Positions 3,429 to 64,000 of a stretch of 64,000 bases of DNA are shown piece by piece. Location of the stretch: the NCBI GenBank assembly GCA_043228905.1, contig JBHGNT010000009.1, positions 8,742,001 through 8,806,000 of the forward strand, in the 5' to 3' direction. This stretch comes from Azolla caroliniana. Its lineage: Eukaryota; Plantae; Polypodiophyta. Below the pieces are notes generated by a model. It ran no database searches. It was not told the origin of the DNA and saw nothing but the letters and a program-made list of their open reading frames with translations. A program made the translations under genes and the position numbers. The stretch's first letter is position 1; each line of letters opens with the position of its first letter.

Positions 3429-4769
3429 ATGTAAAAAATATGTGTATTGGGTAACTTAATTGTTGAGTGAGCAAGCTCAACTAGGGCTGAATCAATTGAA
3501 GAAGCTGAGAGTCGGATCGGTTGGAGACCGATCAGGTAGGCCCGAATCAGTTGGATAAACCGAAAACCAAATCGGCTGTTAGGCCGTATCGGATGGCCAA
3601 GTCTCATGGAATCTGATAGGACTTTAGGGGCCTATATTCCTATTTTAGTATATTATAGGTAGAGTTAGTGTCAGGCTCAGTTAGTGAGCATTCAAGTACT
3701 TGTCAGTACTTGTGTCAGCCCACTCATCAGGGCTTGTATATAAAGTGCTCTCTGAGCACATTCATTGTATTGAGTACTGAGTTTTTGAAACTTTTAGTTG
3801 TTTGCTCCACTCAGTTTGTCTCTCTTTCTCTCTTACTCTGTGTTTACCTAACTATTGTGTTGTCGAATAACCGACTATGTACTCCGCGTCTATTGCATAC
3901 ACTTCCGCACACATTCTTTTACATGGTATCAGAGCACGAGGGTTGAGAATCCTCTGCAACCGACAAAGATAACATGATAGAGACAAGGTTTTTCGTCTTC
4001 CAGAAAAGAAAATATAGGAACATGGATAGAGGTACGGGAAGCTCGCTTCCGACATAAAAGCTCGACAAGAGCAACTATGCCTCTTGGACATACAAGATGC
4101 ACCAGTATCTACTCGGTCATGGATACTGGAGTTACGTGGAAAGAGTAAATGATGTAGCACTAGAGCCGTCGCACAAAGACTTCCCAGCTTGGGAGCAAGT
4201 AGCAAGCTGAGTCTTGTATTGCTTTGCATCCTGTGTGGGTGACCAAATGCTCAACTACATAAAAGATGCGAAGTCGCCAAAGGATGCTTGGGGAACCTGA
4301 AGAGGGTGTTCCCCGCTACCACCATAACCCGTAAGTTGCAGCTCAGACAGAAGCTCATGAATGTCCGACAAGGGGGTATGTCGATAACTAACTACACCAC
4401 AAAGATCTAGGAGATCTATGATGCACCTGGGTCCATTAGTGTTAGGTCAAAAATATGGGTCGATTCAGACAACTATTTGCATGAGAGAGAAGCCTCTGTC
4501 ATTTTTCGACTTACATTCGATTGCTCCTTGTAGAGGACAACCACACGGGTGCGTTGACGAGCATGCACGTCGACAACAAGATGATGTACACGGAGGCGGA
4601 TCGGCCCCGTGGTTGTGGTGGACGAGGTGGGTTGGCATGCAATGGAGTAGAACTCGATACATAATCGAAATGCCAATAGCAGTTCTGGACCCTCCACGAG
4701 TAGGGGGAGTCAGCTGAAAACCGGAAAGGAAAGACCGCGACGGACTATTGGTATTGTGGCCGGAAGCGC

Positions 4770-5841
4770 TGTCGTGAAGATCCGTCACTACGCGCGGATC
4801 GTGAGGCGGAACCGCCGGGGTTCTGGACCGGAAGGATTTAGAGTCGATACAAGCTTTGGCGAGAAAGTACTTAAGATAGATTGGGAAAGAGAGAAGTTTA
4901 GATTAAACGATTGAGAAAGATCGATTGAACTTTTTATTTTTGGATTTAAGAAACAAGTTACACCATCAATTTGATAACAAATTTCTTCTTAATTTCGTAA
5001 TAAAAAAAAACCGTCTTTTTTCTCCTCCCCCTTCCCTCTTTTATAGATGCTCTCATGCATATGATGCATGTGAGGGTACAAGACATGCATAAATTGCATG
5101 TTTGCCATTTGGCGCTTATGTATTACTTGTGGTGCATGATAACCATGTCACTCATTTTAGTTCTCATGTATGAGAATTTACATGTAAAAGTACAATGATA
5201 GGAATATAATTTCAACTAAATAACATGGCTTAATGGTAAGCCAATTGACTCCTAACTTGGAGGTGCAAGGTTTGAATCCTTACTTGCCCTCTTTGTATAT
5301 GTAAATATGTATATATATTTATATATTTATTTATCTAGTCGCCGGACGCCGGTTCGCCGGATGCCGTCGGTTACCGTTGCCGTCGGTTACCGGTGCGTCG
5401 GCGGATACCGGCGCGTCGCCGGATGCCGTCGGATCACCGGCTCCATCGCCGGTCCGGTTTTGGTTGGTCAAAACCCTTTACGAGTAGCTAGCCCACCTCC
5501 ACTCTTAGTTCAAGTTACCTTCAACTCTCTATGCTCCACACATAGACACAAAGATAATATCTTTTGCTCCACCTTATATATGATGAGAGCTGTATTTGTC
5601 GTGCCTATGTGGGATATCTCACAATTTTCTCTTTTCCTTTCACAAACTTTATACCCTCATATCTTGACATTTAGTTGTCCGTTTCTCGTGTAATAAAGTG
5701 TATTCGAAACCTCCATCATTTTGTACTTAGATATTAAATCTATTTAAAATGTTATCTTCACAATTATTGTACTATGTGATTCATACTCGATTTCGTACGT
5801 TTTATGGGATTTTCACACTATTGCCGAAAATCTTCACGGCA
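4770..5841 (-). mobile_element. Solo LTR of the tRNA-Trp-primed gypsy group, inserted in the copia gag zinc knuckle
   Basis: TGTCGTG...CACGGCA termini; 4-bp TSD GCGC/GCAC; removal restores YCGRKRHW; shares U5 motif CCCCGGCGGTTCCGC with related LTRs. Confidence 0.8.
5222..5290 (+). ncRNA. tRNA-derived module (A box, B box) inside the LTR, antisense to the LTR
   Basis: TGGCTTAATGGTAAGCC (D-arm hairpin, A box) ... CTCCTAA ... AGGTG CAAGG TTTGAAT CCTTA (T arm, B box); acceptor stem not intact. Confidence 0.55.
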
Positions 5842-8800
5842 GCACCACTGAGAGTTAGTGCTGGAAGAAGCACGCCGATTCGGATCGAGCCAGATCGAGC
5901 CGAGGTGACACAGATAGGCGTCAAAGATCGCACTACACCGAAGGCTCAGGGAGAGCCGGAACGGACCCTGCCTTCATTATGAAGCACAAAGCCAACTCGA
6001 TGGCGGTGAGCACCTCGAAGGAAAACAAGGTGTGGTATGTGAATTCTGGTGCATCAAACCATATGAAGAATCACAAGGAGTGGTTCTCAAATATAGAGAA
6101 GTTGAAACAACAGGGGGTCATCGAAACTGGCGATAACACCCCGCACCCCATCAAACATAACAAGAGATGTCCCTCTCAAGCATGTCGGTCAGAGAGGAAT
6201 CAAGAGAAATGTGTTGCATGTGCGGACAATCACCAAAAACTTGGTGTCGGTCGGATAAATTGTCGACCAGGGTATGCAAGTTCGATTTACTCACCTCAGG
6301 TGCTTCATAGAGGAAGAAGTTGGATTATTGCACAAGGGCGCCGAGAAGGGAGGATGTTTATCCTTGAGACGAATGACGTTGGCACCGCTATGTTTGCCAA
6401 AGGGCAAAAGGTCGAATCGGACATTGACTTGTGACACAAGCGATTTGGCCATGTCAACTTCCTACAACTTTAAGAGATGCAAACGAAAAACATCATTTTC
6501 GGCTTGCCGAAATTCAGTGGCCGAAAGGGCCAAATCTGCGAAGCCTGTCATTTAGTGAAGCAACACCGATTTCCATTTCCCAACGAGCATAATTGGAGCT
6601 ATAACAACATCGATTTAATCCATTCGGATGTGTGGGGGGGGGCATAGAATGTGAGTATTGGTGGGAGTCCTTACTTTGTAACCGTCATCGATGATTACAC
6701 TCGGCACACCTGGGCATGCTTGATCGAGAAGAAAAGACATGTCTTCTCCTGTTTCTTGAAGGTGAAGAGCCATGCCGAACGGGAGACATGCCGGAAAATC
6801 AAGTGTCTCAGGACTGATGGCGGAAAAAAGTACTCTTCCAACCAGTTCTCAAGCTATCTGTAGAAGGAGGGAGGGAATCCAATGAGAATTCTCTTGCAGA
6901 TACACACTGGAGCAGAATGGTGTGACCGAGCAGAAGAATCGGATTATAGAGGAAGCGGCGTGGGCAATCCTTGAGGAGAAGCATGTGTTGAAGTTCTACT
7001 AGGCCGAAGCAGTCAAGACACCCATTCAATTGCAAAATTGGACATTTGCAAATGGAGGGAAAGTGTTGCCACACGAACTATACTTTGGGAATAAGCCGAA
7101 CCTAGGACACTTGAGAATGTTCGGTAGCATCGCATATGTGCATGTGCCGAAAGAGAAGAGAAGGAAGTTGCACGCGAGTGCTGAGAAGTGCATTTTGGTC
7201 GGCTACTCGGACGAGCAGAAGGGTTATAAGCGTTATAACCCACGAACGAAACATGTTTGAGTCAGTCAAGATGTCGTATTCAACGAGTCAACTTCATGAT
7301 ACTTGCCTCCACCTTCAACCCCTATTAACTCCATTCTGAATTTTGATGATGAGGCTAGTGAGACTGAGATGCCCCTAGATGAAGAGGAAATCGGAACTCT
7401 AGAAGAGAGTCCAATCTCATTCCGGCTAAGTGAACCGAATGAGAGACTGAGTTGGAACGACTAGTTGGATGATGAGTCTGCGAGTAGTGGAGACTCGGTT
7501 GTGCAGTCCCCGCGTCAGAAGCCGAGGAGAGGGCTACGCAGAAGCATCGATAGATGTGAATTAGCGTGTCGCTATGGAGGAAGAGATGTGCGCATTGGCG
7601 GAGAATGAGACATGGGACCTGGTTGATGCCCCCAAGGGTGTGAAGCTAATCAGATGCAGGTGGGTGTACAAGGTAAAGTACAATGTTGATGGCTCCGTCA
7701 ACCGATACAAGGACAGATTGGTGGCAAGGAGTTGTGCGCAACAACACGACATCGATTACGATGAGACATTTGTGCCGGCCACAAAGATGAGGACCGTTTG
7801 TGTCTTGTTAGCGGTAGCCGCAGCAAAGGGTTGGCATCTACATCAATGGATGTAAATAAGGCATTCCTGCAAGGTGGGCTTGAGGAATAGGTGTACATGG
7901 TACAACCCCTTGGTAGTTTTCTGACTGAAGAAGTCCCTCTACAGACTTAACCAAGCCCCACTGGAATAGGTTGCATAGGATGGGGTTTGCTCTGCTGAAA
8001 TTGGACTCTTCATTGTTCATTCAGCAAAGTTGGACCGGACCGATAAACATTTTGCAATATGTCGATGATTTAGTCATCGCCAGTGCTGACCTAGAAGAAA
8101 TCGATCGCGTAAAGTCTCAACTAGCCGCATCATTCGATATGAAGGATATGGAGGACGTTCATTACTTCCTCAAGATCAATGTGATCCGCACCCCCGAAGG
8201 TATACTGATCAGCCAACAATATTATGTGTTTAGTATGCTCTTCAAGTTCGGTATGACGGATTGAAGTCAGTCGCAACTCCTCTGGATCGAAACGTGAAGC
8301 TTCCCCAAAGATCGGGAAAGGCATGCGACCCAACACGGTTCTGACAAATAGTAAGATTCAGCCTTATATATCTAACCATCACCCTTCCGGAACTTAGCTA
8401 TCCAATCAGCTTGATTAGTCAGTTCATGTCACAACCGACCATGGAACACCTTCAGTGCATGCAGAGGATATTGCGGTATGTCAAAGGATAGGGCATTGTT
8501 GTATCGGGTTAGGGTAGCCAAACAGTTAGTCGGCTACACGGATGTTGATTGGGCCGGAAATGTTGGCAATTGCAGGTCAACATGAGGTTTTGCATTCTCA
8601 TTGGGAGGTGCACTATCATTTTTTCTGTAAGCGAGTCGTCTCCCGTGAAGTGGACTTCTATATGTTCCGATGGATCAGCAAGTTTTCGATATCTTCACCA
8701 AACCTTTTGGCCTAGACAAGTTGCGGCAATTCTCGGGCATGCTTGGCATACAACACATTGACATGCCGAACTTGAGGGGGAGGAGAGAGATGAAGTCTGA

Positions 8801-10753: not shown

Positions 10754-10760
10754 TACCCGT

Positions 10761-11387
10761 TGTCGTGAAGAAAACCGTCCACAAGCGGAATCGGTGCACC
10801 GGAGCGTAGGAACCGGCTCTTCATGCACGTACGCCTTATGTTGTACATAGAAGATCCTAGGTAGGTAGATTCGGTAGGTAGGAAGTTAATGGGAAACGGC
10901 TCCTTCCTTGCCTATAAAAGGAGGGAGACGAGGAGGGGGAAAGGGATCGCGAAGTAAGAGAGGACGAAGTGCTGTCGGATTGTGGGCCGAAGGCTTCTCT
11001 CTCTTCCATACTCCGTAGCTTCTTTCTGTGCAGGTTTCGTGAGGCTCACACTGCTCTAAGGAATGCCCGAGTGCTTCCGGCAGCACCTCCAACCTACTCC
11101 TTTCTTTCTGAGCGTTTGCGAACAGGCATCGGCATCTGTTCGCCGGCTTGTTCGGTTGTAACCGACTTCGTGCTTCTCGTTGTTTGTCTCTGTTAATATA
11201 TACATACATACCTTCGTGTCTCTCTGTGTTGGTTTCCTGCTCGCGTCTTCGTGTCGAAGGGCCGTGTCCCTGTGGATCTACGCTCGCACCTAGTGGGTCT
11301 CTTCCCTTCTCCTTTCTCTCTTGCTCTTCGGTACAAGACCCCCGAGGTCCCGCCTCATTCCACACATCCGCGAGGAATACCTCGACA
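10761..11387 (+). mobile_element. Solo LTR (627 bp) of the tRNA-Trp-primed gypsy group
   Basis: TGTCG...CTCGACA; 4-bp TSD CCGT/CCGT; TATA CCTATAAAAG ~10911; U5 motif CAAGACCCCCGAGGTCCCGC. Confidence 0.85.
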
Positions 11388-11391
11388 CCGT

Positions 11392-15962: not shown

Positions 15963-18900
15963 AATGCTTGTTGGGGAATGACTAGACACCTCTGCTTGAA
16001 CCTGTCACAGTCGAGATAACCAATCTTTTGCACTTGGATTCATTGAAACTCTAGGATGCTCCAAAAAAGGCCATCGAGGATGATAACCATTACATGCGAA
16101 GAATGACGTGACGTTACTAGAGGAATGCATTGAATTATTGTATGAAAACTTAGGGAAATGTAAAATATCCATTGTCGTGAAGAATTCTGGCTATGACAGA
16201 AAACAGAGCTGGATGCTCGTGAACGGGGATGTGTAAGAATGCATACGAACAAGGCTTTATGTATATAAATTCGATGTGTATATAAATATATATTTAACGT
16301 TGCGAAAAACAAGAATAATAAAGTACGAGACAGAGATAGTATATCGGTGCTTTAAATGGGTCGAATGTTGATGACAACACATTGGGGAGAGGATCATGGA
16401 ATAGATCTCTAACCAAACGGCTCCATTTAACATTGATGCAACTGTCCTCCCCTGGTGTTATAAAAGGGGAAGAACATATCTGTTCTGGGGGGGATCATTT
16501 AGGAGGCAGAAGCAATGTCAGATTGCCGAGTCGACTACTCATTTCTTGCTTTCAGGCCGTCTATCGTTGTACAGTGAGTGTTATGTTCGTGTTGGAAGCC
16601 CATGTGCTCCCGACTAGAGGCTTACTAGGGTTCATGTGTGTGTGTGTGGACAGCTTGAAGCTCTGTTGTTGGCCAAGTCCGGTTGTATTTTCTATTATTT
16701 TAAGTTAATCGATTATTTTGTGGCTCTCGGATCCCTTGGGTCTTTCTGTCTCTGTTCGTATCCTCATCTCTATTCCCTTCCTCTTGCACACATAACTGAG
16801 CATCCGAGCCAATGTGCTCATCGTCTGGTATCTGGTGACGGGTCTGAAACATCATATGTGCCTGAGCCCATGTGCTCATAATTTGGCATCCGCTGACTAG
16901 CCCGGATCGTTTACGTGTTGACCTGTGTGTCGGCAAAGTTATCCGAAAATCAATCCAGATAATCATTTCACACTCTCTCTATCTCTACCGGCTCCTTCAT
17001 TCAAGACCTCGGCGGTCCCGCCCCGTTCCGACACACGCGCGTAGAAAAACCGTGACATCTTTGGTGAACCCGACGTGAAAGGAGGCGACAAAGGAGTCGA
17101 GATGAGGGGAACTGAGCTCATGGAAGCAATGGCGGCGGTTGTCGACAAGGCCATAGAGACAATAGTTGGCACAATAGGCCGATTTAATGGAAAGGACATG
17201 ACAAGCTACATGGAGGCTTGTAGGGCCGAAATGATAATGAGGGTCATCCTGGAAGACAAACGACTGTTTGGATTCCCATGGGTCGTAACACCGAGCATCC
17301 ACATGGAAGTGCTCGAGCCACTTGATCGGGAAAAGGTAGGTCTCCTATTGGAGACGGATGAAGGGCTCAGGGCCAATTGGGCCGTGGTCAAAACGCTTTG
17401 TAGCCGTTTCGACAAATGGCATGAATGGAATGACGCGGGGTCATCGATAGCCGGCCCAATTTCCGGGAAGAGGTTGGAGGAGATTATGACTCAGTTGGGC
17501 AAGACAAGAAGGTGGCTCGAGTCGGGCCCGGTTCCGACCAATGTAGTCGAGGGACCATCTGGTGGTGTAGTTCTGGAAGAGATGACGAAGATTGAACTCG
17601 ATCGGCAGATCACATAGGCTCCAAGAGATGGTGGGGGTCAGTCGCATGACCGGGGCCCACCGAATGACCTCAAGTGCATGTGGTGCGATGGCGTCAGCAT
17701 ATCCAGAGGGACTGTGCCGACTTCGTTGAGGTGCTTAAGAATAACGCAGTGTACCTTTGGAATAGCCGGGTACATGTGAGCGAGACGCGGAGGCTATTGG
17801 AAATAAACACCAATCGGGGCAGAATGAAAAGGCTGATGGAGGAGGTTGCGACACGGCACGCAGAGACCATCCATTACTTGGTGTCAGGTGGTATTCAAGT
17901 CAACGAAGACAAGGGCACCAGCTCTAGAACCGACACCGGATTTTGGCTGGTGAATCTTGTAGGCTTCTCCGAGAAGAAGCTAAGGAAGGAAGAGGCAGGT
18001 CTATGAGGTCACCGGATGGGGTGATCTGGTAAAAGAAAGCATCGGCTTCGTGGAGGCCGCATGCTAGAACTACGAAGTTCTAGTGGAGAACAAACAGGTC
18101 GGAAAGGCCTTCGAATCGGTATGGCACCCCGAGCAGCCCAAGGAAGACTAATGTCGGTTCGGCTGACTGACAAGAGAAAGAGAAGATGAAGTTCTCGGGC
18201 TTCCGGCTAAGCTCGGAGATTGAGAAGACAACAAACCTGCATAAGGTCTTAGAGGAACGAATCCTCGACAATTGGGTGGAGCTCTCATTACAAAAAGTAC
18301 TGGAAATTCCGAAGAAAGAGTTCCACGACTCAATCATGGACCTAGTGAAGAGGAAGCGCCTCTCGACGGAGCCTGAAAACATGAAGCCGGTTGAGGTAAA
18401 AGCCGCACATATTGATGAAGTGGTGGTAGAAGATGACTATGTTGATAGCCACTACCTGAAGCCACATTGGACGAGAGTGACAACGAAGACACCGATCCGG
18501 ATCAGTGATGTGCAGAAGCCGGTGGCGGCACTAATCAACCACGGATCTGAGATCAACCTGATGTCAATGGAATTTTAGAAGAAGGGTAAGTGGCCGATTA
18601 ACACGAAACATGATCGCGATTGTCTAGACAGACACCGGAAACCCCACACTTGTATAATAGGTAGAAAATTTTGTCTTTGTGAAAACAGAGGATGTAGAGT
18701 AGTCGGCGTTGTCAGCCGAGAAAAGCAACAAGTCGAAAGGCATTTGAAGGAGTGCAGAGCCTTGGACCCCGATGACTTGATAAGAGGCGTCGTGGAGGCA
18801 GTCTCTTTCGTCGACACTCTCGAGGACATCGAGAAGGTGGTCGAGGAAGGCTTGAGCAAAGACCGGACGATACCGGTTGGTTCAATGGAAATGTATGAGG

Positions 18901-20329
18901 AGATAGAGAAGTTCGGACTACCCGAGTCAATATGAAGTACAAGACTGTGGATCGGAAAGTGAGGCCAGTCGTGGCACCCTTACCAGAGGACAACTGGGAG
19001 TGAATGAATGGGGTCACGATCGACCCAAGCCTACGAGATCCGGTCGGTATAGGGCACCAGTTCATCGACGAGACACTACGGAAGTTGAAGATCAGTGGGG
19101 GTGGCTTTCTATTGCTGGCGGAGGAAGACCGATTCCAAAGAATGTTCGAATGGCACGAGAAAGCCTTTGCATTCTCGCTGGGGAAGATTGGGTGCATCAA
19201 CTGAACCATCGTCAAACCGATGGTGATATTCACGGTACCGCATGTATCGCGGAACATGAAGCCGATTCTGGTGCTGAGAGCTCACATCCCAAAGCTGATG
19301 GAGCTACTCAAGGAGAAGATTGACATGGGGATCCTTGAACCGTCGAGTGCCCCTTATTCAAATCAGTGGTTCACTTTGTTGAAAAAGAACGACACATTGC
19401 ACTTCATTCAGGACCTGCAACCGATCAACAAGGTGACCATTTGAAATGCAAGAGTTGATCCGATGATCGATGAGTTCACGAAGGCCTTAGTCAAAAGATC
19501 TATCTACTCAGTTGGAGACTTGTATTCCAGGTACAACCAATTCCAACTAGTCGTCGAAAGCAGGGACATAATGACGATGCAGACCCCTCTCGGCTTAGTT
19601 CGGATGTGTACCCTGCCTCAAGGAGGCATGAATTCAATGGCAAACATGGTGAATGCAATAAATAAGGTGTTGAAGGACTACATTCCGGGCATCCGGAGGA
19701 AATGAAAGATGAATCAGTCGAGAGGGATGGATGTTGAAAGTTCGTGGCCGACCACATCGCCGACTACGAGAAGATACCCGGCTAACCTTTTTTGGAGAGA
19801 AGTCAGCTTTCGGGCAGTCAAAGATCGTGGTGGTCAGCTTTCGGACAATATGGTCAGAAACCGTCTCCGACAAAGATCGGGGCCATCTCAGCCATGAAGG
19901 AGGAATGTCGGTTGACCACTGAGGTTCGGTTGTTCTTAGGGGTATGTGCCTTCTACCACATCTGGATCCCACATTATGCACATATTACTGAGTGACTGTA
20001 TGGCTTGTTGAAGAAGAGGTGGAAGTTCAAGTGGACAGAACAACACTCTGAGGCGGTTCGAAGATTGAAGGGGATGTTGACGGCAACACCAGCTCTCTAA
20101 AAAGTGGTATACTGGAAGGACACTCTAATCTATGTGACGGTCGACGTGAGTCCAACCGAAATCAGATGGATAATCAACCAGGAGGATGAAGGCGGAACGA
20201 GATTCGCCATCCGGTTCGGAGTAAAGGTCCTAAGCGAGAAGCAACAAGGATGTGTTGGGATTTCGGTCCCTCCGGATGGGATGTCCCCGGAGATAAATGA
20301 CGGCAAGCCCGGTTGCGGTTACGGAACCG

Positions 20330-20450
20330 GACGATGAAGAGTACCCGGCATGAAGCCGGATGAAGTGTACCCGGATGCGGATCCGGATGATGAAGAGTAT
20401 CCGGATACGGATCCGGATGATGAAGAGTACCCGGATACGGATCCGGATGC
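20330..20450 (+). repeat. ~30-bp tandem repeat in U3 of the copia LTR (also ~25102-25222)
   Basis: GGATGATGAAGAGTAYCCGGATACGGATCC in 3-4 copies. Confidence 0.8.
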
Positions 20451-20940
20451 GGGGACATATTTGTGAATATGTTTGCCAAGGGCCCTTGAGGCTATATTTG
20501 TAAATAGCCCGAAAGTCATATGTGTATAAATATGACTTAGGGCAAACAGTTTATGTTGCTACTCATTTTTTTGTTTTTCCACTCAAGAGGAGTGAAGAGG
20601 AAGCAGCCGAGAGAGAGAGAGAGATAGAGCGAGAGAGAGACGAAGAGGTAGACGCCTCTGTGTATTTCCGCCGCCTGTGGCGAGGACAGCGAGTTCAAGG
20701 TCGTTGCCTTGCAGCTCGCCATTGTATATTTCTCTGTGCATAGTTTGGTTTGGAGTCACGCACTCCCGTGGTTTTTCCCGTATAGGGTTTTCCACGTTAA
20801 TCCCTGTGTATCGCGTCTTTCTCTGTATTTCCTATTTTCTGCTGCATTGATCCGCGATTACTCGGTTGTGGCCGAGCGGAGAAGGTGAATCGAGGACGGT
20901 GATTCCTTACAAACTGGTATCAGAGCGACTGTTGCAGAAA

Positions 20941-23900: not shown

Positions 23901-25014
23901 ACTGAAGCAGGCTCCCCGGCAATGGTACCGGAAGTTTGACTCCTTCATGACCGACGAAGGGTACCTCAAAACGCAGTCCGACCACTGCGTGTTTGTGAAG
24001 AAGTTCGAAGGAGGAGACTTTCTAATACTCCTCCTGTACGTGGACGACATGTTGATCGTCGGACGGGACCAGGTCAAGATACGGATGCTGAAGAAGGCTC
24101 TTCACCGAACCTTCTCAATGAAGGACCTGGGTCAGGCGAGGCAAATATTAGGGATGCACATCATCCGGGACCGGAAGAAGAAGCAGTTGTGGCTGTCACA
24201 GGAGAAGTACGTGACGAAGGTGCTTCACCGGTTCAACATGTCGGAGGCAAGACCGGTCGGATCGACCCTCCCGGCAAACTGCAAGCTGTCCAGCAAGCAA
24301 AGCCCCAAGACAAAGGCTGAAAAGGAGGATATGATGAAAGTGCCGTATGCCTCAGCCGTCGGGAGCTTGATGTACGCCATGGTGTGTACGAGACCGGACA
24401 TCGGATATGCAGTCGGAGTGGTGAGCCGGTACATGAGCAATCCCGGCAAAGAGCATTGGAACGCGATCAAGTGGATACTCCGATACCTGAAGGGCACAGC
24501 GAATGTGTGCCTCCGATTCGGCTCCGGTAAACCCGAACTCGACGGTTTCACCGATTCGGATATGTCGGCTGATGTAGATACCAGCCGGTCCACGTCAGGG
24601 TATGTGATGACGTATGCAGGGGGAGCCGTTTCGTGGCAGTCGAGGCTGCAGAAGACGGTTGCGTTGTCAACCACGGAGGCGGAGTACATGGCAGCTGTTG
24701 AAGCCGGCAAGGAAGTAATATGGATGAAGGACTTCATTAGAGAGCTCGGTATCCGGCAGGAGGAGTACCGACTCTACTGCGACAGTCAAAGTGCAATCCA
24801 CCTTGCGAAGAACGCGGCCTATCACTCCCGGACGAAGCACATCCAGCGAAGATATCACTGGATCCGGGAAAGGATAGAAGACAAGGAGTTCGTGCTGACA
24901 AAGATCCACACGGACGAGAACGGGTCGGATATGCTGACCAAGGTGCTCAAACCCGACAAGCTGGAAGCATGCCGGAAGAGGATCGGATTGGAGAGACATC
25001 CCATGCCGAAGTGA
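20941..25014 (+). CDS. gag-pol: Copia Gag-Pol polyprotein (gag, CCHC knuckle, PR, INT, RT, RNase H), uninterrupted
   Basis: First ATG after the PBS; CFHCGKPGHFRKNC; WVVDSGASFH; WHKRLCH..CTDC; VHTDV, IRADNGGEY, GLAERMNRT; YVDDML; FTDSD, TEAEY, YCDSQSAI. Confidence 0.97.
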   Translation: MEGGGSAQPMMMVLNAQNYADWKIKMEDLLIVRDLYEPIDRSEIPKGVLESEWKLLNRKAVATIRQYVDVSVLQHVANDTNAYEMWKKLSGLYERKNALNRTSLMRKIVNLKYRDGESMVEHVSTFMGFVNQLAAIKFPLEDAMQAIILMCTLPESWENLVVTLSTSCTEDNLSLQTVKTSILNEEARRRDKEPASDPKMLFTESDRGRQWNRSPQRREKSGTRSQSRGRPTCFHCGKPGHFRKNCRHYRKDNGADDTDSKKSPERNGAYRGATDRRGSDRQGQDRKGTTALAASEEEIMLITEEGELNVAGDETTWVVDSGASFHLTPERRYFSSYTAGEHGCVRMGNEGTCRIAGVGDVWLTTPTGCKMLLKDVRHVPEVRLNLISAGRLDDEGYTGSIRNGVMKFSKGSLIVARARKINTLYLMNARLCPEELNVAADTAGELWHKRLCHMSEKGMKRLAEDNLIPVKHVHLEKCTDCLAGKQNRTSFHSRPPTRRGAPLELVHTDVCQVETKSHGGAQYFVTFIDDHSRRLWTAPLKTKDQVLSVFKELHARVERESGKKLKAIRADNGGEYRGQFQEYCRSKGIRLEFTVPKTPELNGLAERMNRTIMERVRSMLAHAKLPKGFWAEAMSTATYVINRSPSVPLDGDTPQRVWTGREVSYRHLKVFGCLAYVHVAKDRRGKLDPKTRPCIFLGYGDDEFGYRVWDPVDKKIFRSRDIIFMEDKTLADWESEKKMKSSKSTGENQLYEEQSRPARDRLALEDPAEDGEETEPAEEDENDTGTGPDPETDSDEEESEEPVTEAPERRYPLRERRAPRRFPEPEHVLLTDEGEPESFEEAKHDTKSRRWLSAMQDEMDSLHENHTYELVELPKGKRALRNKWVFKLKPGDAGNPSRYKARIVVKGFQQKKGVDFDEIFAPVVKMTSIRTVLSIAASMDLEVEQMDVKTTFLHGDLEEEIYMQQPEGFEKKGKEHLVCRLKKSLYGLKQAPRQWYRKFDSFMTDEGYLKTQSDHCVFVKKFEGGDFLILLLYVDDMLIVGRDQVKIRMLKKALHRTFSMKDLGQARQILGMHIIRDRKKKQLWLSQEKYVTKVLHRFNMSEARPVGSTLPANCKLSSKQSPKTKAEKEDMMKVPYASAVGSLMYAMVCTRPDIGYAVGVVSRYMSNPGKEHWNAIKWILRYLKGTANVCLRFGSGKPELDGFTDSDMSADVDTSRSTSGYVMTYAGGAVSWQSRLQKTVALSTTEAEYMAAVEAGKEVIWMKDFIRELGIRQEEYRLYCDSQSAIHLAKNAAYHSRTKHIQRRYHWIRERIEDKEFVLTKIHTDENGSDMLTKVLKPDKLEACRKRIGLERHPMPK

Positions 25015-52496: not shown

Positions 52497-52499
52497 CTA

Positions 52500-53442: not shown

Positions 53443-53489
<47 letters not shown>

Positions 53490-53758: not shown

Positions 53759-55653
53759 CAATATAGCACGCCCGTGGGAGAGTGCCTTGCACGTCGATCC
53801 CACATGCCTTGATGATGATATTTCTTCGACCGGAACTTCCATCGGTCCTTTCAACGATCGACTCCCTCGATCGGAGTGCTTGACTCGAACATCTTTGTCG
53901 GTCTGCAAATCTTTCTGCAACACGAACATTCTCGTTCTATCGGCTTACGAACTTCGTCATGGGTCCAAAATCATGTCGTGTATATGTATGTTCTTCCTTT
54001 GTTTTGAGTGTGTGTGAGTAGTCTTGGGGATTTTCAAAATTTTGGTGGTGCCTTTTTTTTTTTTTTTTTTGATATGTACCCTCGAGTTTTGAAAATTTCA
54101 TTCCGTACCCCCAAGTTTCTGAAATTTTAGGCTGCTACCCTCAACATTTTAAAATTTCTTCGCATGCCCCTCCTCTTTTTCCCTCTCATTTTTTTAATTT
54201 TAGTGTTTGTCTTCTTACGTTTTCTCCTGCGTGTTGTCTGCATTTTCTTCCTCCTTCTTGGTGTTAACCATTGCTTCTTCTCCACTTCATGTCTTTCTTT
54301 TCCTCCTCTCTCTTTCTTCTTCTATCTCTGTTTCTTCCACTTCGTGTCTGTCTGTTCATGCCTTTCTCTTCTTCCATGACATCTTCTTTTTCTTCCTTCT
54401 CTGTTCTTCTTCTTCCTTGCATTTCTCTTCTCTCTTCTTCTTATTTTCTATATGTCTGCCTCTTTCTTCTCTGCGTTGTCTTTGTTTTGGTTGTCGTGGT
54501 TGGTCATCTGTCCAGCCCGTTTGGCCATTCCGGCCACTGTTCAGCTATTACGGCTGCTTTGGCCGCTCGTCCATCTCCATCTCCCGCCGTTTCGACCAGT
54601 TTCCGGCCCTTCTGGCCGCTCTTTCCGTTGTTTGGCCCGTTTGGCCATGTCTGTCTGGTCCATCTCCAGATGTCTCTGTCACGGACCTTGTCGGCCCTAT
54701 TCGGCCGTCGGTTTTGGCCGAGGTCCATCACTTTTCGGCATCAATGTCGTTGTTTCGGCCGTCTTTGTCCAGCATGTCTCTGGCCGGTTGTACGGTGACT
54801 CCGTCATCGTTCCGGCCGCCATCGTTTGTTTGGCGATCGATGCGGCTTCATCCGACCCTTGTTTGACCCTCCGGCCGCTCCGGTTGCTACAGCCACTGTC
54901 TGGCTATTCCAACCGTTCCAACTGTTGCCCGGCTGCTCTTCAGCCATTGTTCGGCCATTCCGGCCGCTCTTCAGCCATTATCCGGCCATTCCGACTGATC
55001 TCTGGCCACTCCGCTCCGGCTGTTGTCAGTTAGTGGTGACCATTCCTAACGCCTTTCTCGTCGTCGCCAGCCCTGTCCGGCCGACCTCCAATCGCATGGC
55101 CGCTCTGTTCAGTCGTCACTATCCGAGCGTTCTTCTGGCCTCCGGTTTGGCCACAGTTCGGCTGTGTCTAACCGTTCTATTCTTGGCTGTTGTCCATTAG
55201 TCGGTCGTGCCGGCTGTCCGTCTCTGACGATATCTTTCCAGTCCTTCGTTCATTCTTCCGTCCATCCGTTCGGCCGTTTCCGATCATCAAGTCGTTCTTC
55301 AACGGTCTTTGTCTCTTCGCATATTTGTCGTTGTTGACCTTGTCTGACTGTCTTCGTTCATCCATGCCTGGTCGTTGTTGGTCGTCATAGTCACTATCTT
55401 TGTTGGTTCTGTCTGGCCGGTCTCTTTCCACTGTTCGACCCTCGGTTTGGCCGCCGCTTGCCGGCCTCTCCGGCCTTTTCCGTCTATGCCTCGGCCGCTA
55501 TCAAGCTACCACTCCGTTGCGGACTCCATCACCGTCTCTGTTGGTTTCCATCCATTCGAGTCCACCTCTGTGTCTCTTCTCTGTCTTCTATGGTCCTTCG
55601 GTGTTAACCAACTCTGGTTCTTGTTCCGATTCCGGTTCCGACTCTCTCCGCGT
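53759..55653 (+). mobile_element. Putative long non-coding 5' region of a Tat-like element
   Basis: Follows the PBS-like motif; TTTT(G/C)AAAATTT repeats, CT-rich tract, CGGCC-rich degenerate repeats 54500-55500; no credible ORF. Confidence 0.45.
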
Positions 55654-55780
55654 TGTCGTGATGTGGCATGTCTAGTGCGAGAAAAACTCAAAAATTGAGG
55701 ATCCACACACATTTCACGAATACTTGTAAAAATGAAAATAAATAAACCTAGGTCACAATGGCATTGAGTGCATGTAGAGG

Positions 55781-55850
55781 GTTGCAAGTAGGATTTGAAC
55801 CTTGCACCTCTAAGGAAAGAGGCAATTACCTTACCACTAAAGCTACTACT
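55781..55850 (-). ncRNA. tRNA-derived module antisense in LTR U3
   Basis: Minus strand GTAGCTTTAGTGGTAAGG...AGAGGTGCAAGGTTCAAATCCT. Confidence 0.55.
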
Positions 55851-57185
55851 AAGTGTTGTAGATGTTCTGTATTTCTTTCTCATATTCAGTATTCCGTAGG
55901 AAACAAACGAACAAAACCGTGTACACAAAACCACGGTTTTAAGCTCATGGTTTCCTACATGTCACAAAGCAAAACGGTGTGCACAAAAACCATGGCTCCA
56001 AGCCCATGGTTTTGTGCATGGACAAACCTATAAAACCCCTAGTACGGCTTGTGTAAGGGGGGGCTCAATATGATATGACCATCATCATCACCATCAATAA
56101 TATAAGCTTCTATTTCTTCTTCTTCGCATCTATCTTGTAATTATTTATCTACTTCTCAAAGTGTACAATCTTCAATCTTCTCAAGTGTAATAGGTCTTCC
56201 TCCAATCTTACAGTCACATCGTCCTCTTCTCAATACCTTGACGGACATCCTCCTTGGTCCAAGACCCCGGTGGTCCCGCTCAAGCGAAGCACGCTCGCAC
56301 ACGCATCTTCGCGACATTTCGCGACGTGAACGAGGCGGTAGGAAGGATCAAGTCGAGATTAATACTTGGAGATGGCATCCTCAAGCAACCAAGCGGGAGA
56401 GCTCGAAAGGATGATGCTAATCGTCGAGCAAATGATGAGATCTCGGGACAACGACGCGAGCGTGGAGAAGGTTGTCGATCGTGTCGTAGAGCTCGAGGGC
56501 CAATTCGATGGAAGGAACGTTACGAAGTTCCTTGATGCATATAAGAGGGAGAGGAATCAGAGGGACGTGTCCGAGGCACGTCAAATCGCAAGCTTCAAGA
56601 GAGTTGTCGCCAACAACATCCAAAGACGCGTCATCGAGCTTCAAGAAGGTAAGACAACATGGTCCGAGTTCGAGAAAACGATACTAGCGGAGTTCGTGAC
56701 TGAAGACTCAACGAGGATGACTCGACATGCCCTGATGAAGTGGATAGAGAAGAAGAATAAGAAGATGAGCGTCTCGAGGGTGTACGACGAATTCGACCAG
56801 ATGTTTAGTCGTCTCCCCAATACGGACCAAGTGTTGCTTGAAGAGGACAAGACTTTGTACTTCTTGAAGGCCGTGGACTTAAAGGATAGACGGGAGTTGG
56901 GGACTCTTCTCGAAGATGATACCCAAGCAAATGGGCTCGTAGCGGACTGGATCGCAGTGAAGCGGGCATGCAATAGGCTCGACAAGCGTCGCCAATGGGT
57001 TGATGACACCGACTTGACAGGACCGACTACCACGGAGAAAGCAAGACCGCCGAAAGTAGCTAAGCCGCCGAGACAAAGTAACGTTGTCGTAGTGTATTCC
57101 ACACACTACGTGAAAACCATAAAATAATATATCCGATTTTAGATACATATAACTAGATAAATAATATGTCAAAAAAATTTATCAA

Positions 57186-57258
57186 GTGCATAGGGCAAGA
57201 TTCGAACCATGCACCTCCACATAGATAAACCCCAACTTTACCATTGTAATAACTTATC
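57186..57258 (-). ncRNA. tRNA-derived module antisense in LTR U3 (copy at ~62908-62980)
   Basis: Minus strand TTACAATGGTAAAG...GGAGGTGCATGGTTCGAATCTTG followed by a T7 run (57171-57177). Confidence 0.5.
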
Positions 57259-57831
57259 TTTAGTGTTATAAATATAGATTTAATACATATAAGACCTTTA
57301 TTTACACATACCTTTATTAAAAGGTAAAAATCATGTATTCTTTAGAGTGTGAATATTTTATTTACACGTGACATTAAAAGTGACTCATGCACATCTAGCG
57401 TGCATGAGCCCTATATTTAGGAAATGACAAAGCATCACATGCACATTTAGTGTGCATGGACACTTTAGGTAAAAAAGCATGAAGCCATGCTTAGCCTCTT
57501 CCATCTTTATATAAGGAGGAGAGAAATATGTATATGGTTGTTGATTAATATACAAGGGGATTGATCAATCTAATATATTCGGGGGGATTCACGAATTTTG
57601 CCATCTAATTGCTCTTATAATCTAAATATTGTTTTAATTACACTAAACTCGTGGGATTCACGAGATTGCTATCTTACTTCTCTTTCCACTATTCATAACT
57701 GGCCTTAAGTTGTATTCCTCTTCCTCCTAGTCAAAAACCTCGGCGGTTCCCACCCGACTCACGCAACGATCCGGAGCCGAAGGGCACGACACAGTTGGTG
57801 AACCCGACGTGAAGCACCGGGTGGCAAGGAG

Positions 57832-59874
57832 ATGGAAAATCAACCGGAGGCTAGCAACATGATGATGATGTTCGAGCGCATCCTACAAGAACAACGCGCG
57901 ATGTCAGAGATAGCGGCATCAGTGGAGCGGCTCGTGCAACGAAACGGACAATTCAACGGGAAAGACGTGTCGCGGTATCTTCGGGACTACAAGGCGGAGA
58001 TGCTACGGTGCGGAATATCGGAAGGACTGCAAGTGACGTCCTTCAACCGGGTGGCGACCGACGGGCTTCAAGCAAGCATCCATGGGCTACGACAACAAAA
58101 TCCGACATGGGAGGCGTTTGAAGAAGAGCTAAAGAGGACGTTCGCCATCGAGGATTCCTCCAAGGCGACGCGAAGGGGGTTCAAAGATTGGGTGGAGACG
58201 CCGGACAAGGGATTGAAGGTCGTTGATGTGTTTTCGGCATTCGAAAGCCGGTTCGGGAGGTTGTCCGCGAGAGATCAAGCTATCCTCATACCGGACAAGG
58301 TAATCATGTTCTTGCGAGCCGTGGACGTCCGGGACCGGAAAGATCTCGGAGTGCTCTTGGAGGACACGACCACGGAGAGCGGGCTCACCGAAACATGGGA
58401 AAGCGTGCGGGATATCGTCGCGCGATACACGAAGAGGGGGCAATGGCTTGCCAACGAGGAAAAGAGGGTTTCGGAACCGATTCCGAAACCGAGAACCGGA
58501 TTGGAAGACCATCAACCAAGGGCTCGGGAGACTACAACCGAGAAGGGAATTGATGCATCTACGGTGGAGCAACTATTGAAGGAGATGGAGAATCTGAAGA
58601 TCGCGATGGTGAAGAAGTCGGATGACCGCCCCACAAGCTCCAAGTATACGGATCGACGGTGCATATGGTGCGATAGCGCCGAACACGATCGGAGGGATTG
58701 CGATGAGCATAAGGAGGCGCTACGGCGGGATCTCATCTACTACGAGGGAAACCGGATTCATTCGATGGACTCTCGGAAGCCACTCCGACCGAACTTCCAG
58801 AAAGGCGGCATGAAGAAGGTGCTCGAGGAGGAATTGGCGGCAATAAGCAACTATGCGACAACCGCGGGAATATGTGTCGGGGAGTCATCGAGAGCAAAGA
58901 CGTCTTTTTGGCCGGAAGTTCTAGAAAACACCGAGAAAACCGACTCCAACGAGATCCGAAGCACCGCGGAAGGCGTCCGGGAAGCTACGGGATGGGAGTG
59001 CCCTGTCGACAAGAATAGCGTATATGCCCTGTGTCAATTGCATAAGGTGTATGTGGACGAGAAACGACGACGCACGGAGGATGCGGCCGGGCCATCGAAG
59101 ATACCGGAAAGTTGGAACTCCGGAGGTAAGGGAAAAGAAAAGGCGACTCCGGCATTCAAGCTCGCCTCGGACATAGAACAACAAACCGACTTGAAAAGAG
59201 TGTTCGAGGAAAGAATCTTGGATAGCCGGGTAGATTTCTCGCTTCGGGAGCTACTCGGAATAGCAAAGAAGGAGTTCCACGATCTTCTCGTGGATCTCGT
59301 GAAGCGAAAAAGACAAAGTACGGAGGAAAATGCTCCAAGGGTGAATGCGAACACCGTTTTAATGAACGACACCGAAGCGGAGGACGAAATTCCGAACTCC
59401 CACTATACAAGGCCACATTGGGCACGCGCGACTACGGAGACTCCGGTCCGAATCGGCAACATCAAAGAACCCGTGCTAGCATTGATTGATCACGGATCGG
59501 AGATCAACTTGATGTCCAAGGAGTTCTACCGGAAGGGGAAGTGGCCTATTAACACCAACCATGGATGGAAGATTCGGGCGGCCACCAAAGCAACGGAAGA
59601 TCTATTTGCGGCTTGTCCGGATGTGACGGTGAAGATCGGGGATGTCGAGATCAAACAAAATTTCTTCGTGCAAGATGAGGTTTCACATTCCGTCATCCTC
59701 GGCCAACCCTTTATCACGGCATCACGGATGGAGACGAAGGTGCTTGATAGCGGTGCGGCTTTTGCGCGAATTCGGAGCCAAAACGGTGGGAAATCCGTCC
59801 AATTCCTAACGGTGCCGGCAAATCACGAAAGGAACAAGAGGGAACTCTTGTCCCAAGTGAGAATGGATTTTTAA
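57832..59874 (+). CDS. gag-pro: Gypsy Gag-protease ORF (680 aa)
   Basis: GQFNGKDVSRYL; CIWCDSAEHDRRDC knuckle; ALIDHGSEINL and VILGQPF protease motifs. Confidence 0.93.
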   Translation: MENQPEASNMMMMFERILQEQRAMSEIAASVERLVQRNGQFNGKDVSRYLRDYKAEMLRCGISEGLQVTSFNRVATDGLQASIHGLRQQNPTWEAFEEELKRTFAIEDSSKATRRGFKDWVETPDKGLKVVDVFSAFESRFGRLSARDQAILIPDKVIMFLRAVDVRDRKDLGVLLEDTTTESGLTETWESVRDIVARYTKRGQWLANEEKRVSEPIPKPRTGLEDHQPRARETTTEKGIDASTVEQLLKEMENLKIAMVKKSDDRPTSSKYTDRRCIWCDSAEHDRRDCDEHKEALRRDLIYYEGNRIHSMDSRKPLRPNFQKGGMKKVLEEELAAISNYATTAGICVGESSRAKTSFWPEVLENTEKTDSNEIRSTAEGVREATGWECPVDKNSVYALCQLHKVYVDEKRRRTEDAAGPSKIPESWNSGGKGKEKATPAFKLASDIEQQTDLKRVFEERILDSRVDFSLRELLGIAKKEFHDLLVDLVKRKRQSTEENAPRVNANTVLMNDTEAEDEIPNSHYTRPHWARATTETPVRIGNIKEPVLALIDHGSEINLMSKEFYRKGKWPINTNHGWKIRAATKATEDLFAACPDVTVKIGDVEIKQNFFVQDEVSHSVILGQPFITASRMETKVLDSGAAFARIRSQNGGKSVQFLTVPANHERNKRELLSQVRMDF

Positions 59875-59928
59875 AGCGGACTGTTGCGGAGTGGGGAAGT
59901 GATAGTCCGAGAAGCCCTGATACCCCAC
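59865..59928 (+). promoter_or_regulatory. Predicted -1 ribosomal frameshift signal (slippery heptamer plus H-type pseudoknot)
   Basis: G GAT TTT just before TAA; 5-nt spacer; stem CGGACTGTTGC/GTGATAGTCCG; loop GTGGGG pairs with CCCCAC 59923-59928; -1 frame is open into pol. Confidence 0.75.
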
Positions 59929-62806
59929 ACAGGAAGAAAACTCTCGGAGCAAAACATGTACGAATCGGTCCGGATGGGGCATCTACGTACACGACCGTAA
60001 CCGGAGGATTGAAGAAAGGATACCGACAAGTGGAGGATAAGTTGCGGTCGGCATCAATAATAAAAGAAGATGAAGAAATCGTGGGGATAGTCGAAGAAGT
60101 GTTCTATGAGAGCACGCTACAACGACTTGAAGAGCTTGCGGAAGATAAAAGCCAAGGGAACCGGGTAGTTCCGGTGGAATCGGTCGAGATGTACGAGATC
60201 ATTGCGAAAATGGAGCCGGATACGCTCCGCAAAGAAGAAGCAATGGTAAGTACGAAATACAAGACCGTGGAGAAGAAGGTGAAACCGGCCGCGGGACCAC
60301 TACCCGCCGATAGCGAACAAAAGAGGAAAGAAGTCTCGGGAGATCCGACACTTCGGAAGACCGTGGATATCGGACATGCCTTCACGGATGAGACCCGGAA
60401 GAAACTTCGGATCGGTGGAGGTGGGTTCCTATTACAAAAAGAAGAAGAATGGTTTCGCGAGATGTTGGAGCAACACGGCAAAGCGTTTGCATTTACATCA
60501 AGGGAGATAGGGTGCGTCGATCCGAGAATAGTGGAGCCGATGGTGATCTTCACGATTGACCATGTACCGTGGAACCTGAAGCCGATTCCGGTGCCACGAG
60601 CACATATTCCGAAAGTCATTGACTTGCTCAAGGAGAAGGTGGCGATGGGGATTCTAGAGCCATCAACTGCTCCGTACTCAAATCGATGGTTTACGGTTCC
60701 GAAGAAGAATGGGTCACTCCAATTTATCCAAGACTTGCAACCGGTGAATAAGGTCACGATCCGGAACTCGGGAGTCGGTCCGATAGTGGACGAATTTGCG
60801 GAAGCTTTTGCCAGTCGTGCGATATACTCCATCGGAGACCTATACTCGGGGTATGACCAATTCCAACTAGCCGTGGAGAGCCGAGACATCACAACCATGC
60901 GAACACCGATAGGATTAGTCCGAATGTGCACACTACCACAAGGAGCAACAAACTCGGTTGCTCATATGATGAACGCGATGAACAAGGTGCTTCGAGACTG
61001 CATTCCGGAGATAACGATGCCGTTCCTCGATGACATTCCGATGAAAGGATGCGCGGTAGAAGAAAAAGATGAGACTATGGATGATCAGGGATGCCAAAAG
61101 TTCGTGGTCGACCATATTTATGATTGTGAGAAAGTGTTGCGAAAGCTAGAAGATGTGCACCTAACACTTTCCGGGGAGAAATCGGCATTCGGGCAAGAAG
61201 AAATATTGGTGGTCGGACATCTATATGGGCCCTACGGCCGAAGACCGTCACCAACAAAGATCGATGCGATTCAAGCTATGAAGGAAGTATGCGAGTCAAC
61301 ATCCGAAGTCCGAAGGTTTCTCGGTGCATGTGCATTCTATCACATATGGATTCCGCACTATGCACATATAGCGGACCCGCTCTACCACTTGTTGCGGAAA
61401 GGTAAGAGATTCGAATGGAAACCGGAACACACCAAAGCCATGAAGAAATTGAAGAAGACACTTCGGAGGGCGGAAGCACTTAAGAAGCCGAGCTATGACC
61501 GACCGATTATAGTAACGGTTGATACAAGTCCAACCGGTATCGGGTGGGTCATCAATCAAGCCGACTCGGATGGTTCGCGGTATCCGATCCGATTCGGAGC
61601 AAAGGTTCTCAACGAAAGGCAACGTGGATATGCACAAGTCAAAAGAGAACTGTGGGGAGTCGTGTCGGCGATAAAATCGGATCGGGATTATTTGATCGGA
61701 GCCGAAGTGGTGATCGAGACGGATTGTCTTCCGATACTCGGGATGATGCGGTGTTGTACGATACCGGATGTAGCTATGGTAGGTGGGTTGCATATGTCAA
61801 GTCGCTTAATCCGGAGGTTCGACACATCTCGGGGAAGGACAACGCGGTAGCGGATATGTTATCAAGGGCTCGGTTCGGAGACGACATAACCGAATCGGAT
61901 AATGAAGAAGTTTCCGAAGACTACTTCGCGTCGGAGCACATATGCCGAGTAAACGTAATCCGAGAATTCCGGGAAGAAGAATACGAGGGAGAAAGCTTGA
62001 TGATCGGAAAGATGTTACAAGAGGCCGAGGATTCAACAAACGATAAAGGAAGAAGAGCTGAGATCCGAAGGAAGAAGAGGCAAGTCCAAAAGTTCTTCTT
62101 GGAAAACGGATTAATATGGAGGGCGCCGAAAAGACTGGATGGTATACCACTTCGAGTAGTCGGGACAAAAGAGCAACAAGACCGGATAATGTCCGAGTTT
62201 CACGGATCCGATTGGGCTGGACACCGAGGAACATGGGCAACATTTGTGAAGATCAAGCAAAAAATTGGTGGAAGAAAATGTACAAAGATGTCGCGGAGTT
62301 CACGGAAAGCTGCGAGAAATGTCAAGTCTACTCCGGGGTTCGACATCAAGATGAGTTACATCTGACACAAAGCACCGACTACGACCGAGGAGGATTGAAG
62401 AAGGAGACTGGGTGATCGTCTATGACAGTAGTTTGGACCATCAACATACAACGATGCGGAAATTTGCGAAAAGGTGGTTCAGGCCATACGAGGTTCGGAA
62501 AGTCTTCGACAACGGAACGTACCGACTGTCCGAGTTGGATGGAACAATACTACAAGTGCCTATAGCCGGGAAGCGGGTGAAGATTTTCAAGAAGCGGACC
62601 AACGACAAACCCTATGTGATCCAAGCCAAGGCCGACAACGAGGAGCAATCGGACGAAGACCACGGTGATGCGGGAAGCGAAGAAAGTGAATTACAACTCA
62701 TAGTCGACATAAGGGGAGAATCGGAGGAAGCTTTGGGTGAAGACGGATATGGGGAATCGAGAACTTCGGCACATACCGGAGGATGTGCGGGTTCGGAGGG
62801 GGCGAG
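59865..62806 (+). pseudogene. pol: Gypsy pol (RT-RNase H-partial integrase) with frameshifts at ~61780 and ~62265 and no DDE core
   Basis: YSIGDLYSGYDQF, LPQGATNSV, PFLDDI (RT); VTVDTSPTGIG, KRELWG, IETDC (RH); H..H..CEKC finger joined directly to GDWVIVYDS..RWFRPY. Confidence 0.9.
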
Positions 62807-64000
62807 TGTCGTAGTGTATTCCACACACTACGTGAAAACCATAAAATAATATATCCGATTTTAGATACATATAACTAGATAAATAATATGTCAAAAGAAT
62901 TTATCACGTGCATAGGGCAAGATTCGAACCATGCACCTCCACATAGATAAACCCCAACTTTACCATTGTAATAACTTATCTTTAGTGTTATAAATATAGA
63001 TTTAATACATATAAGACCTTTATTTACACATACCTTTATTAAAAGGTAAAAATCATGTATTCTTTAGAGTGTGAATATTTTATTTACACGTGACATTAAA
63101 AGTGACTCATGCACATCTAGCGTGCATGAGCCCTATATTTAGGAAATGACAAAGCATCACATGCACATTTAGTGTGCATGGACACTTTAGGTAAAAAAGC
63201 ATGAAGCCATGCTTAGCCTCTTCCATCTTTATATAAGGAGGAGAGAAATATGTATATGGTTGTTGATTAATATACAAGGGGATTGATCAATCTAATATAT
63301 TCGGGGGGATTCACGAATTTTGCCATCTAATTGCTCTTAGAATCTAAATATTGTTTTAATTACACTAAACTCGTGGGATTCACGAGATTGCTATCTTACT
63401 TCTCTTTCCACTATTCATAACTGGCCTTAAGTTGTATTCCTCTTCCTCCTAGTCAAAAACCTCGGCGGTTCCCACCCGACTCACGCAACGATCCGGAGCC
63501 GAAGGGCACGACAACGTGGAAGAGAAGAAGATTGATGACGACATCATTGAAGAGCTAGCGAAGAAGTTCGAGAAGGTCACGCTAGCCAACATGAATCGTC
63601 GGGGCCCTAAGGGAAAAGAACCCTTTAGATGCGTGTGGTGCGATAGCATGGACCACATGAGAAGGGATTGTGCGAGCCTTCGAGAGGCGATTCGACAAAA
63701 TATTGTATACATAGAGGACAACATTATCTGCTCAAGCGAGACTAGAAGACCCCTACGGGTGAATTTCGGAAGAGGAGGAATGAAGAAATCTATGGAGGAT
63801 GTCGATGCGACTCATGTGGATGCGATGCACTATGCTGCGTCGGTCGGAATAAGAGTCGGGAAAGACAAGACTGAAGCTGCTAGAGCGGGAGCAAAGTTTT
63901 GGACTTCCGTTCTCGAATATGAGAAGAAGGGAAAAATCACATCGAACGAGGTAGAGCTTGCGGACCGAAGCGTGCAAAGCATAACTGGGTGGTCGGATCC

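What the first reader, a model, noticed from the sequence alone, without database searches (positions are those of the whole stretch)
4766..63517. Gypsy lineage with 4-bp target duplications centred on CG
Seen: TSDs are GCGC/GCAC (4770), CCGT/CCGT (10761), TCGT/TCGT (33011) and ACGT/ACGT (57085). The two elements with only a left junction have GCGT (55654) and CCAT (16173, a possible deaminated CCGT). Copia and chromovirus-type insertions in the same window have 5-bp TSDs without CG (GGATG, AGAAG, GAGTC, GCAAC, TAAGG, AATGC). Established: most plant LTR elements make 5-bp TSDs with weak sequence preference. Inference: this integrase reads N-CG-Y, possibly methyl-CpG, steering insertions into other CG-rich transposons. 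Only six sites are available.
Basis: partly seen in the sequence, partly recalled or inferred. Interest (0 to 1): 0.78.

Follow-up and report, generated by a model that had tools for sequence, protein, structure and literature searches.

The report
Known CG-targeting Phygy-type plant retrotransposons
Six copies of one plant jumping-gene lineage sit at four-base target duplications centred on CG or its decay product, a real and strong preference that is already published for the moss lineage Phygy, to which they very likely belong; whether the integrase senses methylation is untested.

Summary
All six junctions are as described, all six LTRs share one 3' motif, and the duplication is 4 bp. It generalises: of 43 distinct genomic flanks of this LTR family in metagenome contigs, 36 have CG at positions 2-3 (background 4.2%) and the other 7 have TG or CA, the deamination products. 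The consensus is a palindrome, V-CG-B, best ACGT, not N-CG-Y (G at position 4 in 8 of 43). The trait is already in print: REXdb (PMC6317226) lists non-chromovirus Phygy as 4-bp TSD (100%), NCGN, tRNA-Trp primer, no extra domain. The window's elements meet each of these features; no Phygy reference sequence was available for a tree. The methyl-CpG idea is untested and unsupported: no methyl-reader domain in intact relatives, and CG-centred targeting is known from Ginger1 and Drosophila ZAM. What is added: a sharper logo, and protein relatives in ferns, liverworts and fungi. The scan noted NCGN targeting before in a fungus (e1-10582392).

The parts
4766..5845 (-). Solo LTR 4770-5841 (1072 bp, minus strand) with TSD GCGC/GCAC, inserted in a copia gag-pol region
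   Evidence: U5 motif on minus strand; paralogous copia runs on across the site
10757..11391 (+). Solo LTR 10761-11387 (627 bp) with TSD CCGT/CCGT
16169..27290 (+). Old decayed element: left flank CCAT, 5' LTR 16173-17057, PBS 17062-17079, decayed gag-pol including an integrase core; interrupted by a copia (20253-25683) and a solo LTR (26785-27167); no 3' LTR found
33007..33736 (+). Solo LTR 33011-33732 (722 bp, 80% identical to the 57085 LTR) with TSD TCGT/TCGT
55650..64000 (+). Host element of the same lineage: left flank GCGT, 5' LTR 55654-56316, partly deleted PBS, gag split by the 57085 insertion and running off the window
57085..57791 (+). 5' LTR (707 bp) of the young element, preceded by TSD ACGT (57081-57084)
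   Evidence: 3 differences from the 3' LTR
57796..57813 (+). Primer binding site, complementary to the 3' end of tRNA-Trp
57802..59874 (+). gag-protease ORF (DUF4100)
59751..62816 (+). pol: RT and RNase H, then integrase remnants in shifted frames; the catalytic core (about residues 790-1004 of the intact relative P0193) is missing
62807..63517 (+). 3' LTR 62807-63513, preceded by a purine tract and followed by TSD ACGT (63514-63517)

Best explanation
These six insertions are copies of one non-chromovirus Ty3/Gypsy lineage, very likely REXdb's Phygy, whose integrase makes a 4-base staggered cut centred on a CG step, likely by reading the DNA sequence or shape itself rather than methylation. 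Shown: 4-bp duplications, central CG, a two-fold symmetric preference (A>C,G>>T before the CG; T>C,G>>A after it), a tRNA-Trp primer site, and an HHCC/DDE/GPY integrase with no chromodomain in intact relatives. Inferred: the symmetric intasome contacts both halves of the target, which gives the palindromic logo; after insertion the flanking CG is methylated with the element and decays to TG or CA, which explains GCAC, CCAT and the 7 non-CG outside flanks. The young 57085 copy lacks its integrase core, so it was likely moved by an intact relative or lost the core after insertion.
For: REXdb features match: 4 bp (100%), NCGN, tRNA-Trp 81%, no extra domain. Outside test: 36 of 43 flanks CG, 4 TG, 3 CA; position 1 A27 C8 G8 T0, position 4 T24 C10 G8 A1, against 32% T and 35% A at background CG sites. 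L003 is a 72-bp mini-element with ACGT on both sides. Left junctions in four sequencing runs: 102 of the 121 contigs in the listed 'before' rows run on into the window's CGT or ACGT before diverging; 14 of the other 19 carry the element's own purine tract; 23 rows were not shown. PBS is the complement of a CCA-ended plant small RNA and matches human tRNA-Trp at 16 of 18. Intact relatives show only RT, RNase H, zinc finger and integrase core in Pfam. One-sided decay at 4770 (GCGC/GCAC) shows change after insertion; CG decay is 7 of 43 in flanks and 47 of 162 in LTR ends. Precedents for CG-centred 4-bp targets: Ginger1 CCGG, CCGT/ACGG; ZAM CGCG in Drosophila, whose lack of CpG methylation I recall, not from a call.
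Against: No Phygy reference sequence could be obtained (REXdb additional files 1 and 3 too large; no Physcomitrium-named hit), so membership rests on features, not on a tree. Length is about 7.1 kb with the missing core counted, below the 7.7-10.0 kb of Physcomitrella Phygy. Sixty of the 61 outside loci have contig names with one prefix, so they may come from few hosts. Sequence alone cannot separate CG from methyl-CG reading. Both ends were seen for only two outside loci, and one disagrees at position 1 (L034 ACAC/CCAC).
Confidence: 0.78

Rival explanations
1. The integrase needs or strongly favours methylated CpG, and so aims new copies at silenced transposon DNA without a chromodomain.
For: Flank CGs decay to TG/CA, so they are methylated at some time. 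At least 21 of 43 flanks are transposon-derived and none of 92 scanned flank ORFs hit a host-gene family. The lineage has no chromodomain. [quoted passage not shown]
Against: No MBD, SRA, CXXC or chromo hit in 13 aligned members or 9 scanned proteins. Decay after insertion explains TG/CA. CG-centred targeting exists in ZAM and Ginger1. CpG is not depleted next to the sites (observed/expected 0.96 near, 0.88 far, 44 flanks including L001). No genome background for transposon content.
Confidence: 0.13
2. A sister lineage of Phygy (or TatI/Selgy) that shares the NCGN habit by descent from an older plant-fungal clade, not Phygy proper.
For: Quick tree: window RT-RH sits with fern (Adiantum) and liverwort (Riccia) proteins, next to a clade with Colletotrichum proteins. 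REXdb defined Phygy from Physcomitrella only. TatI also has 4-bp TSDs and tRNA-Trp.
Against: TatI needs an archaeal RNase H (100%), absent here; Selgy uses tRNA-Ala and is about 5 kb. NCGN is reported only for Phygy. Phygy is already called in a liverwort.
Confidence: 0.12
3. Chance or mis-set boundaries: six hand-picked sites with 5-bp duplications read one base short.
For: The six sites were chosen after the fact; two have only one junction.
Against: 36 of 43 outside flanks CG, p about 1e-42, and no enrichment at other offsets; LTR-to-LTR comparison fixes the ends; frame test gives 4 bp.
Confidence: 0.01

Closest known systems
Phygy (non-chromovirus Ty3/Gypsy, REXdb; Neumann et al. 2019, PMC6317226: passages, section 9, additional file 5 read)
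   Same: 4-bp TSD, NCGN preference, tRNA-Trp PBS, no chromodomain, no archaeal RNase H, coding region fills the interior.
   Different: Defined from Physcomitrella only; 7.7-10.0 kb there, about 7.1 kb here. The motif is resolved here to V-CG-B, best ACGT. No direct sequence comparison was possible.
TatI and Selgy (REXdb, same paper)
   Same: 4-bp TSDs; TatI also uses tRNA-Trp.
   Different: TatI carries an archaeal RNase H; Selgy uses tRNA-Ala; neither is reported to prefer a sequence.
Ginger1 DNA transposons (Bao et al. 2010, PMC2836005: passages read)
   Same: Gypsy-like HHCC/DDE/GPY integrase, TGT termini, 4-bp TSD centred on CG (CCGG 75%, CCGT/ACGG 24%).
   Different: Animal cut-and-paste elements with inverted repeats and no RT; preferred site CCGG rather than ACGT.
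ZAM/Tirant errantiviruses of Drosophila (review PMC5408687: passages read)
   Same: Gypsy integrase with a palindromic CG-containing target (CGCG).
   Different: Insect elements with env and AGT termini; a distant lineage.

Membership tests
Phygy | 4-bp target site duplication | tested here: met
   4 of 4 two-sided window sites (one with a single mismatch), frame test, L003
Phygy | NCGN target motif | tested here: met
   5 of 6 window left flanks; 36 of 43 outside flanks, the other 7 TG/CA
Phygy | tRNA-Trp primer binding site | tested here: met
   Same PBS at 17062 and 57796; 16 of 18 match to human tRNA-Trp 3' end, full complement of a CCA-ended plant small RNA. No plant tRNA-Trp gene was retrieved.
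Phygy | Gypsy domain order; no chromodomain, no archaeal RNase H | tested here: met
   Pfam on the window ORFs and on intact relatives 89-96% identical per stretch
Phygy | Polyprotein spans nearly the whole interior, no extra ORF | tested here: met
   gag starts beside the PBS and pol runs to the purine tract
Phygy | Length 7.7-10.0 kb (Physcomitrella range; descriptive) | tested here: inconclusive
   6429 bp with about 645 bp of integrase missing, so about 7.1 kb
Phygy | RT/RH/INT cluster with REXdb Phygy references | not testable with these tools
   Reference files unreadable; tree without a Phygy reference places it with fern and liverwort proteins, far from the one chromodomain-bearing row
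TatI | Archaeal RNase H domain | tested here: not met
   No RVT_3 or second RNase H hit in P0193, P0187, P0210, P0287, P0225, P0001
Selgy | tRNA-Ala primer binding site | tested here: not met
   PBS matches tRNA-Trp
Chromovirus (Galadriel, Tcn1) | Chromodomain at the integrase C-terminus | tested here: not met
   No Chromo hit in intact relatives
Ginger1 | DNA transposon with terminal inverted repeats and no RT | tested here: not met
   Direct LTRs, PBS and RT present

The most novel reading that the evidence does not exclude
The Phygy-type integrase core reads 5-methyl-CpG directly, so a lineage without a chromodomain finds silenced DNA by its methyl mark; the habit is old, shared by non-seed-plant elements, their fungal sister clade and Ginger1.
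Probability: 0.12. Interest if true: 0.7.

Novelty: new member of a known kind. Interest (0 to 1): 0.2.

Why it matters
As it stands, little: it confirms a published trait of Phygy in another non-seed plant and sharpens the motif to a palindromic V-CG-B. The lineage is still one of few plant LTR groups with a near-strict sequence preference, and intact integrases are at hand (P0193 family), so how it reads CG, and whether methylation matters, can be tested directly. If methyl-CpG were required, it would be a way for a retrotransposon to aim at silenced DNA without a chromodomain.

Tried and rejected
No whole genome is held for the window, so no genome-wide logo or background. No related loci in viral contigs. 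No Physcomitrium-named protein in three homolog searches and one cluster look-up; the PBS motif was not found in the supplements of PMC7466625, so RLG2/RLG3 could not be tied to this family. tRNA gene searches found nothing. The first read lay showed a highly repeated family but no flank letters. ESM Atlas returned generic Gypsy integrase clusters, including GIN1-named ones, a lead only. The careful tree did not finish; the quick tree is cited, with long-branch warnings (54 of 55 chosen rows, P0176 too short). Ylt1 as fungal counterpart: the passages read give no target motif; not established. Rows dropped from the 61 loci before counting: 13 PBS junctions, 3 duplicates, L025 (decayed PBS followed by gag), L001 (15 of 40 upstream matches, bacterial transposase). 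Pfam was run on 92 of 113 flank ORFs. Rejected: 5-bp TSD, chance, N-CG-Y, TatI, Selgy, chromovirus.

Full report
Observation. The window is a stack of nested plant LTR retrotransposons. All six LTRs start TG(T/C)CGT and share a 3' motif ending in GACA; this shows that the 4770 element is a solo LTR on the minus strand. Comparing the two LTRs of the 57085 element (3 differences in 707 bp) fixes its ends, and taking it out with one 4-base copy leaves the host gag frame open, so the duplication is 4 bp. CG at 5 of 6 left flanks against 4.6% in the window gives p about 1e-6, post hoc. Of the six controls, three are exact 5-bp duplications, one has a mismatch and two have a decayed left end; none holds CG.

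Outside test. No genome is held, so I searched metagenome contigs for the LTR's last 21 bases and got 61 loci. Dropped: 13 primer-site junctions, 3 duplicates, L025 (decayed primer site followed by gag) and L001 (chance bacterial match). Of the 43 left, 36 have CG at positions 2-3, 4 have TG and 3 have CA; the flank background is 4.2% CG (p about 1e-42; 7 of 7 exceptions being TG/CA, p about 1e-6). Other offsets show no enrichment. Position 1 is A27 C8 G8 T0 and position 4 is T24 C10 G8 A1, where background CG sites have T first in 32% and A last in 35%. The logo is thus a palindrome, V-CG-B, best ACGT (14 of 43), not N-CG-Y; the window's TCGT site shows T is disfavoured, not barred. Left flanks in these loci are ACGT, CCGC, ACAC, ATGC, ACGT and ACGT (L003, with ACGT on both sides of a 72-bp mini-element); L034 has ACAC/CCAC, which disagree. 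Laying four sequencing runs on the left junction, 102 of 121 contigs in the listed rows run on into CGT or ACGT before diverging; 23 rows were hidden and local alignment can pass a mismatch, so this is supporting only. Sixty of the 61 loci share a contig-name prefix and may stand for few hosts.

What the elements are. The young element has a DUF4100 gag-protease ORF, an overlapping RT-RNase H frame, and integrase remnants lacking about residues 790-1004 of the intact relative P0193. P0193 has HHCC, D799-D858-E893 and GPY motifs and no chromodomain, archaeal RNase H or methyl-reader hit in Pfam. The primer site at 57796 and 17062 is the complement of a CCA-ended plant small RNA listed as miR894 (PMC5846777, passages) and matches human tRNA-Trp at 16 of 18 (10.1101/400127, one passage). 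Named relatives are from Riccia, Adiantum and Calypogeia, then Colletotrichum and Chara. A quick tree puts the window's RT-RH with fern and liverwort proteins (99), next to a clade with the fungal proteins (85), far from the single chromodomain-bearing row. The host is likely a non-seed land plant; I did not resolve which group.

What is known. Neumann et al. [quoted passage not shown] Jedlicka et al. 2019 (PMC6911290; passages, section 8) report GC-rich centres in 4-bp TSDs, 4-bp dominance in Phygy, and Phygy nested in Tcn1. Phygy is also called in a liverwort (PMC12885004, passages). Every defining feature I could test is met; the tree against REXdb references could not be run (additional files 1 and 3 too large). 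TatI, Selgy and chromoviruses each fail a defining feature. CG-centred 4-bp targets are also described for Ginger1 (PMC2836005, passages; lead from scan note e1-10582392) and ZAM (PMC5408687, passages). That scan note says the habit was not found for retrotransposons; the REXdb paper shows it is. I also read passages of PMC7466625, PMC6839031, PMC10886601 and PMC5014426; they do not bear on the target motif of this lineage.

Mechanism. Shown: 4-bp stagger, central CG, symmetric flanking preference. Inferred: the two-fold symmetric intasome reads both halves of the target by sequence or shape; flanks are then methylated and decay. One-sided decay at 4770 dates the change to after insertion, and CG decay in flanks (7 of 43) is of the same order as in LTR ends (47 of 162). 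For the methyl reading: at least 21 of 43 flanks are transposon-derived (20, L043) and none of 92 scanned ORFs (of 113) hit a host-gene family, but there is no genome background. Against it: no reader domain, precedents in other lineages, no CpG depletion beside the sites, and one window copy beside 28% GC DNA. Paper searches listed no test of methylation dependence for Phygy; the library lacks most subscription journals.

Verdict. Real, strong and already documented for this lineage; a likely new member of Phygy. Interest 0.2. The open question, methyl-CpG reading, has about 0.12 probability and would deserve 0.7.

Noticed in passing
window:9745-10751: A 434-bp unit repeated 2.3 times, with a 5S rRNA-like stretch on the minus strand (Rfam E 0.0003, below the gathering score) and a tRNA-Met-like primer site seen by eye: likely a tandem Cassandra-type TRIM. 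Cassandra is described from ferns and seed plants (PMC10886601, passages), which leans the host towards a fern.
   Followed up: partly
L003:10-81: A 72-bp mini-element made of the LTR's first and last bases only, flanked by ACGT on both sides.
   Followed up: partly
window:57085-63513: Very young copy (LTRs 99.6% identical) lacking the integrase core and inserted in the gag of another member of its own lineage; whether the deletion defines a non-autonomous subfamily was not checked.
   Followed up: partly
window:57796-57813: The primer site is the exact complement of the plant small RNA catalogued as miR894, which by this match looks like a tRNA-Trp 3' fragment able to pair with these elements.
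   Followed up: partly
window:13670-15962: A non-coding LTR element (LTRs about 450 bp, TSD AATGC) holding a 48-bp tandem array of 15.5 copies at 14686-15429.
   Followed up: no
window:20253-25683 and 39201-44655: Two young copia elements with long open ORFs (1387 and 1254 aa) and LTRs 98-99.8% identical; the second sits inside an older relative (36838-46344).
   Followed up: no
P0041, P0044 (Colletotrichum), P0109, P0128 (Adiantum): The lineage's proteins occur in ferns and liverworts and have a fungal sister clade, wider than REXdb's Physcomitrella-only definition.
   Followed up: partly
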